A stretch of 64,000 bases of DNA, from the NCBI GenBank assembly GCA_951406725.2, contig OX597818.1:103726001-103790000 (forward strand). Direction: 5' to 3'. The translations under genes were made by a program, and so were the position numbers. Below the pieces are notes generated by a model. The model worked only from the letters and a program-made list of their open reading frames with translations, had not been told where the DNA came from and ran no database searches. The DNA is from Octopus vulgaris (Eukaryota). Below, one piece after another: positions 8,848 through 60,521 of the stretch (within the stretch, counting starts at the first letter, position 1; each line of letters begins with the position of its first letter).

Positions 8848-11220
8848 TTCAATTCGATCAACTATCCATTAGCAAAAATTCGATCAACTGTCCACTGATC
8901 TAAATTCGATCAACTGTCTACTTGTGAAAATTCGATCAACTGTGCACTAGCAAAAATTCGATCAACTGTTCACTAGCAAAAGTTCGATCAACTGCCCACG
9001 GGTGTAAATTTAATCAACTGTTTAATTGTGCAAATTCGATAAATTGTCCACTGATGTAAATTCGATCTACTGTCCACTAGCAAAAATTCGATCAACTATC
9101 CACTGGTCAAAATTCGATTAACTGTCCACTGGTGTAAATATGATCAACTGTCTACATTTGCAAATTCGATCAACTGTCCACTGGTGTAAAGTTGATCAAC
9201 TGTCTACTTGTGCTTTTCAGTCAATTGTCCACTAACGAAAAGTCTATCAACTGTACACTGATCTAAATTCGATCAAATGTCCACTGGACTAAATTCGATC
9301 AACTGGGCACTAGCGAAAATTCGATCAACTGTTCACTAGAAAAAATTCGATCAACTATCCACTGGTCTAAATTCGATCAAATGTCCAAGAATGTAAATTC
9401 GATCAACAATTTACACTAGTGGACAGTTGATCAACAATTTACACTAGTGGACAGTTGATCGAATTTAGACCTGGTCAGTTGATCGAACTTATACCAGTGG
9501 ACAGTTCATCGAATTTACACCAGTGGACAGTTGATCGAATTTAGACCAGTGGACAGTTGATCGAATTTACACTAGTGTGCAATTGATCAAATTTACACCA
9601 GTGGACAGTTGATAGAATTTGGAAAAGTAGACAGTTGATCGAATTTACACTCTTGGACATTTGATCGAATTTAGACCAGTGGACAGTTGATCGAATTTTC
9701 GCTAGTGGACAGGTGAAAATTCGATCAGCTGTCCACTGGTCTAAATTCGATCATCTATCCACTGGTCTAAATTCGATCAACTGTCCACCGGTCTAAATTC
9801 GATCAACTGTCCACTGGTCTAAATTCGATCAACTGTCTACTTGTGTAAATTCGATCAACTGTCCACTAGCTAAAATTCGATCAACTGTTCATTAGAAAAC
9901 ATTTTATCAACTGTCCACTAGTGTAAATTCGAGCGACTGTCTACTTTTGCTAATTCGATCAACTGTCCACTGGTTCAAATTCGATCAACTGTCCACTTGT
10001 CTAAATTCGATCAACTGTCCACTTGTCTAAATTCGATCAACTGTCCACTGGTGTAAATTTCATCAATTGTCCACTGATCTAAATTCGATCAACTGTCCAC
10101 TGGTCTAAATTCGATCAACTATCTACTTGTGAAAATTCGATCAACTGTCCACTAGCGAAAATTCGATCAACTCTACACTAGAGAGAATTCGATCAACTGT
10201 TTATAGTGCTATTGCATGGATATACAGCTGCGTGCGTGCGCATATACACGCGAATACTGTCCAAATCTCCGACCAATCACATACAGCTAGCTGGCGTTCA
10301 ATTGGCGTATCAAGTTTCGGGCATTTTGTTTGGGTTTTGGATAGAAAATTCACCAAAAAGTCACTTCTAATGATTTTTGAATGGCTTTGCGGGGTGACTG
10401 GGGAAATGTAAAGATGTGCACGACCACCTTTGAACGGTTTTGAATGACCACAGAAAGTGCGAGCCCTCTAACTGAAAAATTTTGGATTTGTATGAAGGAT
10501 ACTGTCCACCGGTGTAAATTTGATCAACTGTCTTCTTGTGCATTTCAATCGTCCACTAACTAAAATTTGATCATCTGTCCACTGGTCTAAATTCGATAAA
10601 CTGTCCATTAGCAAAAATTCGATCAATTGTCCACTGATCGAATTTCGATCAACTGTCCACTAGTCTAATTTCGATCAACTGTCCACTGGTGTAAATTCGA
10701 TCAACTGTCCACTTGCGAAAATTCGATCAACTGTCCACTAGCGAAAATTCGATCAACTGTCTACTTGTGTAAATTCGATCAACTGTCCACTAGCGAAAAT
10801 TCGATCAACTCTTCACTAGCAAAAATTCCTTCAACTGTCCTCTGGTCTAAATTCGATCAACTTTTCACTGGTCAAAATTCGATCAACTGTCTACTTGTGA
10901 AAGTCGATCAACTGTCCACTGGTCTAATTTCGATCAACTGTCCACTGGTGTAAATTTGATCGACTGTCTACTTGTGCATTTCAATCAATTGTCCACTAGC
11001 GAAAACTCGATCAACTGTTCAATGGTATAAATTCGATCAACTGTCCAGTGGTCTAAATTCGATCAACTGTCCACTGGTCCAAATTCGATCAACTTGCTAC
11101 TAGTGCAAATTCGATCAATCGTCCTCTAGCAAAAATTCAAACAACTGTCCCCTAGCGAAAATTCGATCAACTGTCCCCTAGCGAACATTTGATCAATTGT
11201 CCACTAGCGAAAATGCCATC
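8848..11220. repeat. 26-bp tandem satellite (consensus about AAATTCGATCAACTGTCCACTGGTCT) with an inverted block and an interrupting Helitron fragment
   Basis: Dozens of units; orientation reversed at about 9410-9715; non-satellite insert at about 10200-10500. Confidence 0.95.
10202..10502 (-). mobile_element. Internal fragment of the Helitron family seen at 18377-18735
   Basis: atagtgcta.tgcat..atatacagctgcgtgcgtgcgca...gtgcgagccctctaactgaaaaatt.tggattt matches 18406-18695; both termini are missing. Confidence 0.85.
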
Positions 11221-23589: not shown

Positions 23590-23660
<71 letters not shown>

Positions 23661-23807
23661 AAAAGCAATAAAGATTCAAGTTAATTTAAAAGAATTTACT
23701 TGAATATGGTACCTAACTTAGATGCACCAAAAAAAACTATACTGATTTAACAATACAGTAATGTGGGGTGATTATAAGCGAGAATGAAGCAACAAGAATG
23801 GATAGGT

Positions 23808-23898
23808 TTTTAGTACAATCGTTTCATACAAGGACAGGTTTTATTAAAAGTTGCAAAAATTACAGCATATAAACGTGTCCCGTACTCATCAGCTAAAA
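23808..23898 (-). ncRNA. Type-I hammerhead ribozyme in the PLE pseudo-LTR (sense to the ORF)
   Basis: TTTTAG-CTGATGA-GTACGGGACA...TGTCCTTGTAT-GAAAC-gatt-GTA-CTAAAA. Stem III ACGAUUGU is self-complementary with G-U pairs. Confidence 0.85.
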
Positions 23899-25413
23899 TA
23901 CATGTGAGTTCTCTAGACATCCTAGTGGTTGAGGCTATACTCATGAAGTAATGTAGATAATTAAGTAACATAAACAGATTTCAAAAGTTCATTCAAGTTC
24001 TTTAAAGATGATGTACAGTCTTATCACAGAATTTTAAAAAAAGTCTTAATAGCATCACAGAGAAGGTGACCCAATCCATAGTGCACATATGAATTTCCAG
24101 AGATATGATGAGGGATTACATACTCACAGAAGGCAAATTTATCCATTGTTAATTACAACGAGGTGGGTTTCAATTCCTGCTTATTAGAATTACAGAGAGG
24201 GTGAATTAATCCTTTGTATAGATGCACAATTTCCAATGGTGTAGGTGTAAATTTCCAAGGAATTTCATATTCACAGGCGATAAATTTATCAATGGTTGAA
24301 CACAATGAGGTAGGTATCAATTCTTGCTATATGATTAGGTATTTGCCACATTAATCACATTACTGCTATTTACAAGAGGCTGTAGCTATTTAACTTTTAA
24401 AGGCTGAAGGGCTTACTAGAGCTGTATAGAATAGAAAAGGGAAGGGCATAGAAAAAAAGAGAGAAAATAAAAGAGAGAAAATAAAAGAGGAGGGAGTAAA
24501 AAGGGGGGAAAGGGGGACTCAAAGAGAAGAGAAAAGGAAAAAGAGAATAAGAAGAAGAAAAAGAAAAAAGAGAAAAGAGAAAGAAATAGGGAAGGAAGGG
24601 AAAAAAAGAAAAAGAAGAAAAAAGAAAAAAAGAAAAAAGAAGAAAGAAGAAAGAAAAAGAAAAAAAGGGTTCTAGTTATACAGAAGAATTAGTAGACGAC
24701 AAGTCTGGTTTTAGTTTACAGGCATCTAGGAATTAGAGGAGAATATTATTCTTTGACCAGTTAAAACAGTTAATTTATTGCTGTTGAAATCAGCTATGAA
24801 TTTAAAGAGAATCTAAAGAGATAACACAGTTAGGGGTTTCGGGGTCAGATGCTAAAATCACCAGAAAATACATTAGGGAAAACTAGGTATAATCTTATCA
24901 AAAAGTCATCAAAATTTACTTATTTAATTTATTCATTTTATTGTCTTAAGGAGTTGCCGTTATTATTCATACATTGACGGACTACAGGTCAAATCTTAGA
25001 AGATCATTTAAGAGGTGTTAGGGGATTGTCTATCATAATGAAGATAATCATATTATCACCGAGGGAATAGTCTCATTTATTTAATTTTGAAATAGAATTA
25101 TGGGTCTATAGTAACCCAATTTAATTAATTAGATTTATGCTAATTAAATTAGATTAAGTTAGGAACTAAAATTAAAAATTACAATTAAGATTTAAAATTA
25201 AGAATTTAAAAATTTAAAAATTGTGAGTTTGAAATTAAATAAAGCCTCAATTAAGCAGCGAATAAGTGCTATTCATTTCCCTGTTCTCAAAAAACTGATG
25301 CAGATATAGGAAAAAGATAACTGTAGTGTGAGAACTCTTAGTTATCTACTTAAAGCAGTGCTATACCAGTAGAAATCAGGTTATATCTATCTATCTAGTT
25401 ACGAATATTCTAA

Positions 25414-27392
25414 TCATTTAAAATATTTTAAAGTCTTCAATTTAGCGTGGACACAAACTTGACCTAGTTCGATATGGTTATTCAATAGGTTTCTATGTTT
25501 TCTATGCTTTAGAATTTCATATGTCTCCATGGAGCATAGTTGGCAACCAACCCTACTATTTTTATACGGAATTGCTCTCCTAACTATTTCCCAATTAAGG
25601 TTATAATTTTTATTATTATTTTTGAGTTCCCAGATTTTGTTTGAAAGTGTGGTGGTACCAGCTTTATGACGTAATTTAAAAGTCGAGATGTGATTTGTAA
25701 CTCTAGCTAAAAAATTAATTGTACCTCCAATGTAAAAATATTTGTTATTCTCCGTGGATATGGTACATTTATAGATTACATTATTTTCTCCACATAGACC
25801 AGGTGCCGGGCATTTTGATTTTATTCTACACTTACACACAGGAGGAACACCTTCAGGCTTTGGATTATTCTTGGGTAGATGTTTTAGGTTCCTATTATTT
25901 TGATTATCATTTCTATAGTTGGTGCTGATATCTAAAGTATTGCTATTATTTCTTGATCCTTCTGTTTCATTATTTAGATCTAAAGTCCTACCATGATTTC
26001 TTATATTATTGGTAATGTTAATATTATTGCTAGTCTTTTTATCCGACTTCATATTGTTGTTATAGATATCACTAATATTTTCATTCTCCTTATTTTCTCT
26101 ATTTTCTCTATTTCTATTATTTCTATTATTAACATTATTACTTCTACTAATATCGGTATTGCTATTATTACTATTAATGTTAATGCTATTAGTCATTCTG
26201 TGGTTACTAATTTCACCTATGTTTTGATAGTTACTATTGCTGTTTTTATTGTTGGTAGTATTATTACAATTGCTATTGGTATTCATGCTGATATTATTAT
26301 TATTATTATTATTATTATTTATATTTCTATCTTTCCTGGCTAGTTTAATGTTGTTATTATTAATCTTAGCTATTAAAGTGGACATATTTGGGAGGGTTGA
26401 ATAAGAAATCCTAACTGTTTTCCTAGAAATAATTCTATGATATCTATGAGAGATAGGGAAATTTTTTTCCAGAATCACTTTGAATTTGTTCTGTATATCC
26501 GATTGTATCGCACAGTTGAAAGGAATATTCAGCCATAATATATCTTTTTTATTAAATTTAGGGTTCGTAGAATTATTACTATTCATCTCACCGGAGTTAT
26601 TGTATTTATTACCATTATTTTTATTTTTATTTGTGTGCATCTTAGGTTTATCTACTTCAATACTATCCGAGTTACCTATGTTCTGGTCAATGTTTCTATT
26701 TGAATTGTTGGGCCTGTACGCTAGATTAGCGTTTACCGTTAGTTTAATTCTACTTTTATTTCGGGCTTGGTCTTTATTGCTGCTTACGTGATTATTGATA
26801 ACTTCATTATTAGGAATACGTGAGTTCCCCTTATCAACGAATGTAATCTTTTGGTTGTATCCAGCCTTAGTTAACGCCGCATTATAATGCTCAGAATGGG
26901 AGTTAAAAATATCCTTATTGGATGATAATTTTGAAATTCTTAATGAAATATTTCTTACTAAAGATTCTATAATATTTGGGGGATGATTTGATAATTTATT
27001 TACGTAATTCGTGATTTCACCTTCCTTTCTAAATGGGTAATGTAGTTTGGAGTTAAGGTCTAGCGTAGTATCTAGGAAATTAACTATTTTAGTGCCCGGT
27101 TCATACGTTATACTGAGGTTGAAATCCCTAAAGAACTTATTAATTTTCTTTCTAATCCTTTCTATAACAGATTTATTATTACTAGGGATAACAAACAGAG
27201 CATCATCCCTATATAGACCCCCTTGTAATTCTGGGATATCCTTGCTTATGCATTTTAATAGATATGCGCCTACTAGGTTGGTTACCTCAGCCGGATCACT
27301 GGAACCCATTGGTATATCAAAAAAATTTGGTGTATCTGCTCTAGTCCATAATTTATCTTCAAATTCTATAAATGTCTTCCTAGCTAAAAGAA
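25414..27392 (-). CDS. PLE reverse transcriptase (C-terminal half, thumb) + Asn-rich linker + GIY-YIG endonuclease; N-terminus truncated
   Basis: The frame is open upstream of the annotated Met (LLARKTFIEFEDKLWTR..FDIPMGS). Motifs: LYRDD, VNFLD, SNHPP thumb, CKCRIKSKC (CxCx5C), VIY..YIG, R..NH, CQLC..E. Confidence 0.93.
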
Positions 27393-27491
27393 CTTGAATG
27401 AACTTTTGAAATCTGTTTATGTTACTTAATTATCTACATTACTTCATGAGTATAGCCTCAACCACTAGGATGTCTAGAGAACTCACATGTA

Positions 27492-27582
27492 TTTTAGCTG
27501 ATGAGTACGGGACACGTTTATATGCTGTAATTTTTGCAACTTTTAATAAAACCTGTCCTTGTATGAAACGATTGTACTAAAA
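27492..27582 (+). ncRNA. Second copy of the same hammerhead in the inverted pseudo-LTR
   Basis: Reverse complement of 23808-23898. Confidence 0.85.
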
Positions 27583-27613
27583 ACCTATCCATTCTTGTTG
27601 CTTCATTCTCGCG

Positions 27614-58294: not shown

Positions 58295-58677
58295 CTAGCA
58301 GTATCGCCCTGCGTTGCTCGGGTTTGTAAGGGAAATAACTATATAAGCATTTTTAGAAAGTTATAGCAAAGAAATGCATTAAAAATGGAAAAAAATTATG
58401 CTAAATTTTATTAAAACTCGTTGACTCATCGTAGACATTTTTAGAGAGTTACTTCCCTTATATAATAGCGAAAAAATGCATTAAAATGGAAAAAAATTAT
58501 GATAATTTTTTTCAATCGTAGACTCATCGTAGACGCGCGCTAATACCCAGAAGGGCTCGATATGAATCACGACAATAAGATACCCGGTTTTGGTTAAACT
58601 GCACCGCAAAATGTGGGAGTAGTTAGGAATCTAAATCGTAGGAGTAGGACACACAACTTCTCTTTTATACATAAAGA
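58295..58677 (-). mobile_element. Non-autonomous Helitron with an internal duplication
   Basis: On minus: A|TC start, cccgagcaacgcaggg hairpin, then CTAG|T end. aaatgcattaaaa..gactcatcgtagac occurs twice. Confidence 0.75.
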
Positions 58678-58902
58678 TATATTAGGGGGAAACCACTATG
58701 TGGACACCCTTATGCTAGAAATAGATCCGCTATGGTCTTACCACTAAGAAATGTTCTCAAGAAAAATTTAGCAAAACAACAAAAACGTAATCGAGCAAGA
58801 CAAAAGAAAAAGCAATAAAAATATGGATTATTCTTAGTGGTAAGATCATAGTGGATCTATTTCTAGCATAAGGGTGTCCTCATAGTGGTTTCCCTCTAAT
58901 AT
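58678..58902. repeat. Fold-back with ~72-bp arms ending at (TA)n
   Basis: atattagggggaaaccactatgtggacaccc..ccactaagaa versus ttcttagtgg..gggtgtcctcatagtggtttccctctaatat. Confidence 0.85.
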
Positions 58903-59133
58903 GTATATATATATATATATATAATGATAAATATCAAAGTGAGTTATATACAGTAGCGGTAACACATCGTGGCGTATTTTTGCCATTTCAATATGGCTAA
59001 CCCCTAAGGGTGGATGCTACTGTAGTTTTTAGCCCCAGGAGGACACACTCCTCCAGCTGGCCATAGATACACTATCTGTGTCCTGTCAGTATTTGCAAAG
59101 GGAAGTCATCCTTCCCGTCTTCAACTTATGATA

Positions 59134-59178
59134 CACACGGACTCGAGTTTCGAGGTATTGACCTCTCGTCAGCGTGTG
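59134..59178 (-). ncRNA. Intact type-I hammerhead ribozyme
   Basis: CACACG-CTGACGA-GAGGT-caat-ACCTC-GAAAC-TCGA-GTC-CGTGTG. Confidence 0.93.
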
Positions 59179-59936
59179 ACAATCATAGTTGTCGCCGAAA
59201 ATCAGATTTCTTTCACAAATACTCACGATTTTTCCAGCGCTACTGTCGCTGATATTGAAAAAGTGAAATCAAACAATGATAAATATCAAAGTGAGTTATA
59301 TACAGTAGCGGTAACACATCGTGACGTATTTTGCCATTTCAATATGGCTAACCACTAAGGGTGGATGCTACTGTAGTTTTTAGCCCCAGGAGGACACACT
59401 CCTCCAGCTGGCCATATACACACTATCTGTGTCCTGTCAGTATTTGCAAAGGGAAGTCATCCTTCCCGTCTTCAACTTATGATACACACGGATCATCTAA
59501 TTGTGACAATCATAGTTGTCGCCGACACAAATACTTATACTTTTCCAGCGCCCACTGTCGCTGATATTGAAAAAGTCAAATCAAACAATGATAAATATCA
59601 AAGTGAGTTATATACAGTAGCGGTAACACATCGTGACCTCAATATGGCTAAACTCGAGTCCGTGTGTATCATAAGTTGAAGACGGGAAGGATGACTTCCC
59701 TTTGCAAATACTGACAGGACACAGATAGTGTGTCTATGGCCAGCTGGAGGAGTGTGTCCTCCTGCTAAAAACTACAGGCATCCAAGGGGTTAATATTGAA
59801 ATGGCAAAAATACGTCATGATGTGTTACCGCTACTGTATATAACTCACTTTGATATTTATAATTGTTTGATTTCACTTTTTCAGCGGGTTAAAAAGTATA
59901 AGTATATTGAAATCTAATTCTCGGCAAAATGATTGT

Positions 59937-59975
59937 CACACGCTGACGAGAGGTCACGAAACTCGAGTCCGTGTG
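59937..59975 (+). ncRNA. Hammerhead copy with a 6-nt deletion in stem II
   Basis: CACACG-CTGACGA-gaggtcac-GAAAC-TCGA-GTC-CGTGTG. Confidence 0.7.
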
Positions 59976-60278
59976 TATCATAAGTTGAAGACGGGAAGGA
60001 TGACTTCCCTTTGCAAATACTGACAGAACACAGATAGTGTGTCTATGGCCAGCTGGAAGAGTGTGTCCTCCTGGGGCTAAAACTACAGTAGCATCCACCC
60101 TTAGGGGTTAGCCATATTGAAATGGCAAAATACGTCACGATGTGTTACCGCTACTGTATATAACTCACTTTGATATTTATCATTGTTTGATTTCACTTTT
60201 TCAATATCAGCGACAGTCGCTGGAAAAAGTATAAGTATTTGTGAAGGAAATCTAATTCTCGGCGACAACTATGATTGT

Positions 60279-60323
60279 CACACGCTGACGAGAGGTCAAT
60301 ACCTCGAAACTCGAGTCCGTGTG
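60279..60323 (+). ncRNA. Intact type-I hammerhead ribozyme
   Basis: Identical to 59134-59178 on the opposite strand; predicted cleavage after C60317. Confidence 0.93.
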
Positions 60324-60486
60324 TATCATAAGTTGAAGACGGGAAGGATGACTTCCTTTGCCAAATACTGACAGGACACAGATAGTGTGTCTATGGCCAC
60401 CTGGAGGAGTGTGTCCTCCTGGGGCTAAAAACTACAGTAGCATCCACCCTTAGGGTTAGCCATATTGAAATGGCAAAAATACGTCA

Positions 60487-60521
<35 letters not shown>

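What the first reader, a model, noticed from the sequence alone, without database searches (positions are those of the whole stretch)
58923..59660. The retrozyme array has a PLE integration footprint, and its inversion falls inside the hammerhead
Seen: both ends abut (TA)n. The two halves are inverted, and the left arm extends 43 nt (58923-58965) beyond where the right arm stops (...tacgtcacgat|atat). The flip at ~59651 starts at aactcgagtc, in the palindromic stem III about 10 nt before the cleavage site. The coding PLE at 23660-27612 has the same geometry (inverted arm, unpaired 3' tail, TA targets). Inference: the retrozyme is copied in trans by a TA-targeting PLE RT/GIY-YIG, and the multimers could reflect rolling reverse transcription of a circle.
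Basis: partly seen in the sequence, partly recalled or inferred. Interest (0 to 1): 0.75.

Follow-up and report, generated by a model that had tools for sequence, protein, structure and literature searches.

The report
Retrozyme pasted by Penelope two-site priming
This is one of hundreds of young copies of a protein-less repeat carrying a predicted self-cutting RNA (a known kind, a retrozyme); its two-armed copies nearly always pair two different fixed ends in TA repeats, which likely means a Penelope-type enzyme copies one RNA from both cut DNA ends, while the break inside the ribozyme seen in this copy is incidental.

Summary
The element is real and spans 58923-60490: two back-to-back arrays of a 353-nt non-coding unit with a type I hammerhead, both ends in (TA)n, one arm 43 nt longer. 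Across 119 fetched loci, all 78 two-armed copies point outward, and 67 pair one end at unit position ~310 with one at 353/356 (one B+B, no A+A). Both arms and all units of a locus share one haplotype, arms run cleanly through the ribozyme cut site, and in a third of loci neither arm can be a copy of the other. This is the Penelope-like (PLE) footprint, also shown by Hydra- and Neptune-type PLEs in this genome. The flip inside the hammerhead is not a family trait (11 of 156 flip ends; 20 expected). Rolling on a monomer circle fits most loci, but two loci need longer templates. The neighbouring coding PLE (Hydra type, ~119-nt tail) shares geometry but no sequence; the partner is unidentified, with a Neptune family the weakly better candidate. 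PLE mobilisation of animal retrozymes and rolling RT are already proposed in print, and this scan has reported the same footprint for other families in this genome. Verdict: new member of a known kind, with useful mechanistic evidence.

The parts
58904..58922 (.). (TA)n target tract, left
58923..59651 (-). Left arm ('B arm'): unit positions 276-353 plus two units, 3' end at unit position 353 (window 58923)
58923..58965 (-). 43-nt unpaired tail = stretch between end A (310) and end B (353)
   Evidence: (I15)
59134..59178 (-). Intact type I hammerhead, predicted cut between 59140 and 59139
   Evidence: RF00163 32.2 bits, E 1.2e-5
59490..59510 (-). Inner unit of left arm whose hammerhead core is deleted or garbled
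   Evidence: alignment
59650..59651 (.). Flip: 2-nt overlap joining unit position 276 (left arm) to 126-127 (right arm, in GAAA/stem III)
59650..60490 (+). Right arm ('A arm'): positions 126-353, one unit, then 1-310; 3' end at unit position 310
59937..59975 (+). Hammerhead with a 6-nt deletion in stem II
   Evidence: (26.8 bits)
60279..60323 (+). Intact type I hammerhead, predicted cut between 60317 and 60318
60491..60521 (.). (TA)n target tract, right
23660..27612 (-). Comparison element: 5'-truncated Hydra-type PLE (open frame 25414-27429, RT C-half plus GIY-YIG), short inverted arm 27387-27612, ~119-nt tail, in (TA)n; not sequence-related to the retrozyme

Best explanation
The element is a young non-coding repeat with a type I hammerhead in each 353-nt unit (a non-LTR retrozyme) that is likely inserted into TA microsatellites by the reverse transcriptase/GIY-YIG protein of an autonomous Penelope-like element, which likely primes two separate cDNAs, one from each cut DNA end, at two fixed internal sites of one RNA template. 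Shown: two fixed 3' ends (unit positions ~310 and 353/356), one of each per two-armed insertion; TA targets; scattered 5' ends usually joined by short overlaps; shared haplotype across both arms. Inferred: the endonuclease cuts both strands in (TA)n; one end primes at site A, the other at site B; each cDNA runs back through the unit, past the ribozyme cut site, for a variable length (mean ~430 nt); the two cDNAs are then joined by microhomology, which gives the inverted form with a 43/46-nt tail on one side. Single-armed copies (mostly A) would be events in which only one cDNA was kept. The usual template is probably a ligated monomer circle copied round more than once (about 0.55), with uncut read-through transcripts also used. 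The flip position is essentially free, so its place in the hammerhead in this copy is chance.
For: Two-armed loci: 78 of 78 outward-pointing; A+B 67, B+other 7, A+other 3, B+B 1, A+A 0. In the 49 loci not chosen by their ends: 22 A+B, 0 like pairs, 5 with a non-standard end; 67 of 76 3' ends at TA vs 6.8% background. Neither arm is contained in the other in 26 of 68 A+B loci (before one duplicate was removed), so simple fold-back fails. Mismatch at common polymorphic sites: 1.6% within an arm, 2.2% between arms, 21.7% between loci; 8 of 430 site-by-locus tests discordant vs 180 expected; 27 rare variants shared by all covering units of a locus. 205 of 205 units cross the cut site without an indel; 3 stops at 137-143 vs 3.4 expected. 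36 of 77 flips overlap by 3 nt or more vs ~5.5% for random exact joins (BLAST overlaps may include mismatches). One locus has the same frameshifted Tx1-like LINE in both arms, 98.5% alike vs 96.3% to two other copies. Coding PLEs here follow the same rule: Hydra family 8 of 8 inverted partners end at the short site; Neptune family 5 of 6 loci with both ends seen are A+B. In vitro, a Poseidon PLE cuts and extends both strands and starts RT at two internal sites that bound the tail (PMC11167929).
Against: No autonomous partner found by sequence: three Hydra families and one Neptune family give z -0.8 to 1.9 against shuffles. Self-cleavage, circles and expression are untested. Against a monomer circle as the only template: L066 has a unit-specific variant in register in both arms, L207 carries 5.3 kb of LINE in an arm, and L014 is a mixed array. 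Gene conversion between arms could also homogenise them. Arm lengths are weakly correlated (Spearman 0.35), which fully independent cDNAs would not predict, though locus selection may cause it. 10 of 78 two-armed loci have one non-standard end.
Confidence: 0.8

Rival explanations
1. Same PLE machinery, but templates are always uncut linear read-through multimers, with arrays made homogeneous earlier or afterwards by unequal crossing-over (close to the model in bioRxiv 10.64898/2026.07.22.740005).
For: L066 in-register variant; L207 LINE cargo whose B arm stops exactly at the LINE's first base; HHR cleavage is dispensable for PAc in vitro (PMC11167929).
Against: Rare variants present in three or fewer loci are shared by all covering units of a locus, including both arms (27 cases), while unit-private variants are many (208) yet only one was clearly copied in register in both arms; hammerhead core intact in 196 of 201 complete units.
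Confidence: 0.3
2. The inversion arises by fold-back or self-priming at palindromes such as hammerhead stem III.
For: This copy and four others start the A arm at 125-136 (5 of 71 A arms vs 2.4 expected, p 0.09); some flips are symmetric at palindromes or hairpins (L112, L123).
Against: 11 of 156 flip ends in the core vs 20 expected; 2 of 54 in the unbiased set; symmetric flips 9 of 78 vs 5.7 shuffled, p 0.11, none at stem III; 26 of 68 arm pairs cannot be copies of each other.
Confidence: 0.05
3. The element is moved by a LINE (L1-type twin priming) or is a DNA-transposon/MITE with terminal inverted repeats.
For: Outer ends are inverted repeats; a Tx1-like LINE is physically associated with some copies.
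Against: Ends are asymmetric by a fixed 43/46 nt and internal to the unit, arm lengths vary freely, both arms copy the same part of the unit, no poly(A) tail or fixed target duplication in the flanks read; the LINE sits in the retrozyme as its target, with a 20-bp duplication.
Confidence: 0.03

Closest known systems
Metazoan non-LTR retrozymes (Cervera and de la Pena 2020, PMC7229834; Li, Clavereau and Pollet 2026, 10.64898/2026.07.22.740005)
   Same: Non-coding tandem units of ~350 nt, low GC, canonical type I hammerhead in each unit, dispersed; PLE mobilisation and rolling RT of circles already proposed there.
   Different: Here the insertion footprint is resolved (two fixed internal 3' ends, one per arm, TA targets, shared template); no pLTR homology to an autonomous PLE was found; cleavage and circles untested.
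EN+ Penelope-like elements: inverted pLTR with one-sided tail (PMC8557442, PMC3846280) and two-site internal RT initiation of Poseidon PAc (PMC11167929)
   Same: Head-to-head inverted 5'-truncated arm, tail on one side, microsatellite targets, RT start internal to the RNA and downstream of a hammerhead.
   Different: No ORF; the tail is described there as optional, whereas here the two ends are assigned almost strictly one per arm; start sites lie 174 and 217/220 nt past the cut.
Non-autonomous Chlamys PLEs such as MRC1 (PMC8557442 passage)
   Same: Non-autonomous, multicopy head-to-tail insertions made by PLEs.
   Different: [quoted passage not shown]

Membership tests
Metazoan non-LTR retrozyme | Short tandem units (about 170-400 nt), GC under 50% | tested here: met
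   353-nt unit, 150 of 353 G+C, up to ~6 units per arm
Metazoan non-LTR retrozyme | Type I hammerhead in each unit | tested here: met
   RF00163 32.2-32.8 bits, just under gathering score 34; core intact in 196 of 201 complete units; paired change in helix II and a different palindrome in stem III in sister families
Metazoan non-LTR retrozyme | No protein coding, no LTR-type terminal direct repeats | tested here: met
   No ATG ORF of 40 aa in five clean units; only short ORFs in the window copy; ends are internal unit positions
Metazoan non-LTR retrozyme | Dispersed multicopy family | tested here: met
   597 exact matches of one 30-mer; best BLAST matches on many chromosomes at 96-97%
Metazoan non-LTR retrozyme | Self-cleavage of the transcript | not testable with these tools
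   No assay; fold only
Metazoan non-LTR retrozyme | Accumulates as linear and circular monomer RNA | tested here: inconclusive
   Only assembled contigs of runs guessed to be RNA were available
Non-autonomous PLE-mobilised element | Inverted 5'-truncated arm, head to head | tested here: met
   78 of 78 two-armed loci outward-pointing
Non-autonomous PLE-mobilised element | About 30-40-nt tail on one side | tested here: met
   43 or 46 nt, 67 of 78 two-armed loci A+B
Non-autonomous PLE-mobilised element | Microsatellite/AT-rich targets | tested here: met
   67 of 76 3' ends at TA vs 6.8% background
Non-autonomous PLE-mobilised element | Sequence homology to the pLTR of an autonomous PLE | tested here: inconclusive
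   None to three Hydra families and one Neptune family; other PLE families of the genome not sampled
Hydra clade PLE (window element 23660-27612) | RWK, DKT, CxCX5C linker, CxxC and CxH in a C-terminal GIY-YIG; (TA)n targets | tested here: met
   Motifs read in the window ORF and its 97-99% full-length relative L111 against PMC8557442 section 11; no tree built; Pfam gave no hit
Hydra clade PLE (window element 23660-27612) | Hammerhead in the pLTR | tested here: inconclusive
   Core words with a long stem II seen by eye at 27492-27582; no Rfam hit in L111; fold z -0.65; similar motifs in sister families
MITE/DNA transposon or Helitron | Symmetric fixed TIRs with TSD, or Helitron termini | tested here: not met
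   Asymmetric internal ends, variable arms, single-armed copies common; Helitron end motifs are recalled, judged by eye

The most novel reading that the evidence does not exclude
The inverted-plus-tail footprint of Penelope-like elements in general is made by an asymmetric protein dimer that holds one RNA and primes both ends of a double-strand cut, one at each of two fixed internal sites, and a 353-nt ribozyme circle with no sequence likeness to its helper has captured this reaction by structure alone, giving a minimal natural substrate for the whole PLE integration cycle.
Probability: 0.45. Interest if true: 0.72.

Novelty: new member of a known kind. Interest (0 to 1): 0.48.

Why it matters
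How animal retrozymes get back into DNA, and how Penelope-like elements make their inverted, one-side-tailed insertions, are both open questions with published proposals but little direct evidence. Hundreds of near-identical young copies give a natural experiment: one start site per arm, a shared template, free passage through the ribozyme cut site. A 353-nt RNA with two mapped start sites is a ready substrate for an in vitro test. The class itself is known, and the ribozyme-linked inversion that made this finding look special does not hold.

Tried and rejected
Flip clustering at the hammerhead: rejected; the visible excess of 5' ends is at unit positions 251-275 (34 vs 16.5 expected; 33 if the window's break is placed at 276), a post hoc bin. 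Neighbouring Hydra PLE as partner: no similarity. A direct repeat 5.6 kb apart in the sister family looked like pLTRs of a coding element but is a local duplication without a PLE ORF. Search by Pfam PF26215 failed: family not held. A-to-G editing signal among locus-wide variants (a lead from e1-8662707): 6 A>G vs 5 T>C of 27, no signal in this family. Expression and circularity: no RNA holder on record, only contigs. Whether the window copy's inner deletions are real or an assembly error in a palindrome: no listed contig bridges the unique junctions, undecided. Hybrid PLE-retrozyme insertions: 1 of 41 single-armed loci (L002) has a PLE arm joined at its 5' end; two other PLE hits lay over 870 nt from the junction. 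Rfam at gathering threshold finds nothing in the window; miRNA hits are hairpin artefacts.

Full report
OBSERVATION. The element runs from 58923 to 60490, between (TA)n tracts. It is built from a ~353-nt unit. The left arm (58923-59651) reads on the - strand and the right arm (59650-60490) on the + strand when the hammerhead is taken as the RNA sense, so both 3' ends point outward. Outer pairing begins at 58966/60490, leaving 43 nt unpaired. Rfam places type I hammerheads at 59134-59178(-) and 60279-60323(+) (32.2 bits, gathering score 34) and a damaged one at 59937-59975. Using a real unit as ruler (cut after position 136), the right arm ends at 310 ('A') and the left at 353 ('B'). The inner 650 nt carry many deletions, more than any other locus (76 of 1593 positions; median 0); I could not decide whether this is decay or an assembly error.

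FAMILY SAMPLE. One 30-mer has 597 exact matches in the 2.8-Gb genome. I examined 121 loci: 50 clustered from the first 100 listed matches (not chosen by ends, all on two chromosomes), 40 chosen for having a B end (from the first 100 rows), 30 from the best BLAST hits, and the window. Two segmental duplicates (L034, L090) were dropped, leaving 119; still holds L034, and L076/L077 are two halves of one insertion split by a LINE. All 78 two-armed loci point outward: A+B 67, B+other 7, A+other 3, B+B 1, A+A 0. In the unbiased 49: 27 two-armed (22 A+B, no like pair), 22 single-armed (14 A, 4 B, 4 other); 67 of 76 3' ends lie at TA against 6.8% background. B ends come as 353 or 356. Two loci scored single-armed are A+B by eye (L120, L135). 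A sister family about 75% alike shows two ends 43-47 nt apart at the homologous places.

THE FLIP IS NOT TIED TO THE RIBOZYME. 11 of 156 flip ends fall in the 45-nt core (20 if uniform), 2 of 54 in the unbiased set. Five A arms start at 125-136 (2.4 expected, p 0.09), no B arm does. Symmetric flips are 9 of 78 (5.7 after shuffling, p 0.11), none at the stem III palindrome. 36 of 77 junctions overlap by 3 nt or more, against about 5.5% for random exact joins; 14 have filler. In 26 of 68 A+B loci neither arm is contained in the other, so there the second arm is not a fold-back copy of the first.

TEMPLATE. Units of one locus share a haplotype: mismatch at common polymorphic sites is 1.6% within an arm, 2.2% across arms, 21.7% between loci; 8 of 430 tests are discordant against 180 expected; 27 rare variants are in all covering units of their locus, while 208 are private to one unit. 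Arms cross the cut site 205 times without an indel and stop just after it 3 times (3.4 expected). So templates are not cut linear monomers, and a one-unit bottleneck occurs often, which is what rolling on a ligated circle predicts; a canonical hammerhead with a 2-bp palindromic stem III is expected to cut as a dimer and stay quiet in a monomer circle (PMC4209133, passages). Against exclusivity: L066 has a unit-specific variant in the same register in both arms; L014 is mixed; and the locus L207/L224/L225 is an A+B insertion with the same frameshifted Tx1-like LINE in both arms (98.5% alike over 1.9 kb vs 96.3% to two other copies), best read as both arms copied from one LINE-bearing transcript, though two insertions plus conversion is not excluded.

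HELPER. The coding element at 23660-27612 has the Hydra-clade motifs of PMC8557442 section 11, belongs to a young family and pairs its own two ends the same way (8 of 8 inverted partners among 20 loci chosen by the long end), but its tail is ~119 nt and it has no similarity to the unit. Twenty-one Hydra loci (three main families) and a very young Neptune-type family (784-aa open frame, tail 32-38 nt, 5 of 6 loci with both ends seen are A+B) also show none (z -0.8 to 1.9; sister-family control z 50). One locus (L002/L271) joins a Neptune B arm head to head with a retrozyme arm inside one TA tract, with a short retrozyme-derived filler; that arm ends at 57, not at A. With the closer tail length this makes Neptune the better candidate, on n = 1. 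Clade names rest on motifs, not on a tree.

MECHANISM. Shown: two fixed ends, one per arm; TA targets; shared haplotype; microhomology joins. Inferred: a PLE protein cuts both strands of (TA)n, primes at A from one end and at B from the other on one RNA, and the two cDNAs are joined at chance overlaps. This matches the in vitro behaviour of the Poseidon element PAc, which cuts and extends both strands, starts at two internal sites bounding the tail, is predicted to be a dimer and does not need its ribozyme (PMC11167929, parts 1-2 of 4 read). Confidence 0.8 for the two-primed PLE route, about 0.55 that a monomer circle is the usual template.

WHAT IS KNOWN. PMC7229834 (passages and discussion read) defines animal non-LTR retrozymes and proposes both rolling RT of circles and PLEs as helpers. 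The 2026 preprint 10.64898/2026.07.22.740005 (parts 1-3 of 5, abstract to end of discussion; supplements not seen) links them to pLTRs by homology and co-occurrence and does not analyse insertion junctions in the text I read. The inverted form, one-sided 30-40-nt tail and TA bias are described for PLEs (PMC8557442 passages and section 11; PMC3846280 passages, which explains inversions by self-priming). I found no paper stating the one-site-per-arm rule or showing this footprint for a retrozyme in searches; the library lacks most subscription papers. This scan has reported the same footprint for 359-360, 485-495 and 535-nt families of this genome and the Tx1 targeting; those notes are unchecked, my counts of ends, flips and haplotypes preceded them, and a look-up by this unit's sequence found nothing.

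VERDICT. A real, young retrozyme family, new as a family, known as a kind. The PLE footprint is well supported; the ribozyme-linked inversion is not; the helper and the circle remain open. Interest 0.48.

Noticed in passing
L205 (G000:C2:132132550-132137881), L206, L207/L224/L225, L229, L208, L212, L215, L223, L228: A Tx1/L1-like LINE (zinc-knuckle ORF1, endonuclease-RT ORF2, 5.3 kb) inserts at one site of the retrozyme unit (3' end before position 78, 20-bp duplication 78-97). Among 30 of 44 pattern matches fetched, all 9 of the young subfamily end at this site, 4 in this family and 5 in an 88% sister family; most of the other 21 belong to an 88-89% subfamily that ends at other sequences and forms 5.28-kb tandems. 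Earlier scan notes report the same.
   Followed up: partly
L002 / L271 (G000:C17:47711500-47714100): Neptune-type PLE arm joined head to head with a retrozyme arm in one TA tract; a possible hybrid insertion pointing to the helper.
   Followed up: partly
L268 and loci: Very young Neptune-type PLE family with many identical intact 784-aa open frames, 4.4-kb period, minimal hammerhead-like motif with a palindromic stem III (UUGAAAA in place of CUGANGA in the copies read), two ends 32-38 nt apart in TA.
   Followed up: partly
window 23660-27612; L111, L152-L171: At least three Hydra-type PLE families with open frames of 842-1091 aa and Asn-rich linkers; their hammerhead candidates have a ~50-nt stem II; the window family's tail (~119 nt) is far longer than the 30-40 nt described.
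   Followed up: partly
L049:5323-5782, L172-L201: Older sister retrozyme family (~75% to this one, 2802 first-look candidates) with the same two ends; many copies have a decayed hammerhead core.
   Followed up: partly
window 59275-60184: Cluster of small deletions in the inner units of this copy, far above all other loci; decay or long-read error in a palindrome.
   Followed up: partly
unit positions 251-275: Excess of arm 5' ends (34 vs 16.5) in a predicted multi-hairpin region just upstream of site A.
   Followed up: no
single-armed loci L039, L049, L058, L067, L087, L130, L139: 5' ends recur at unit positions 282 and 326, which begin with ATAT or TATATA, suggesting joining to the TA target by microhomology.
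   Followed up: no
window 58666-58915: 250-bp element with 85-nt inverted arms (91%) just left of the TA tract; looks like a high-copy MITE-type repeat.
   Followed up: no
window 6086, 12533, 19316, 44773, 48083: Other CUGANGA...GAAA motifs in repeats of the window that may be further hammerheads.
   Followed up: no
window 8851-11214: 26/52-bp minisatellite of about 90 copies.
   Followed up: no
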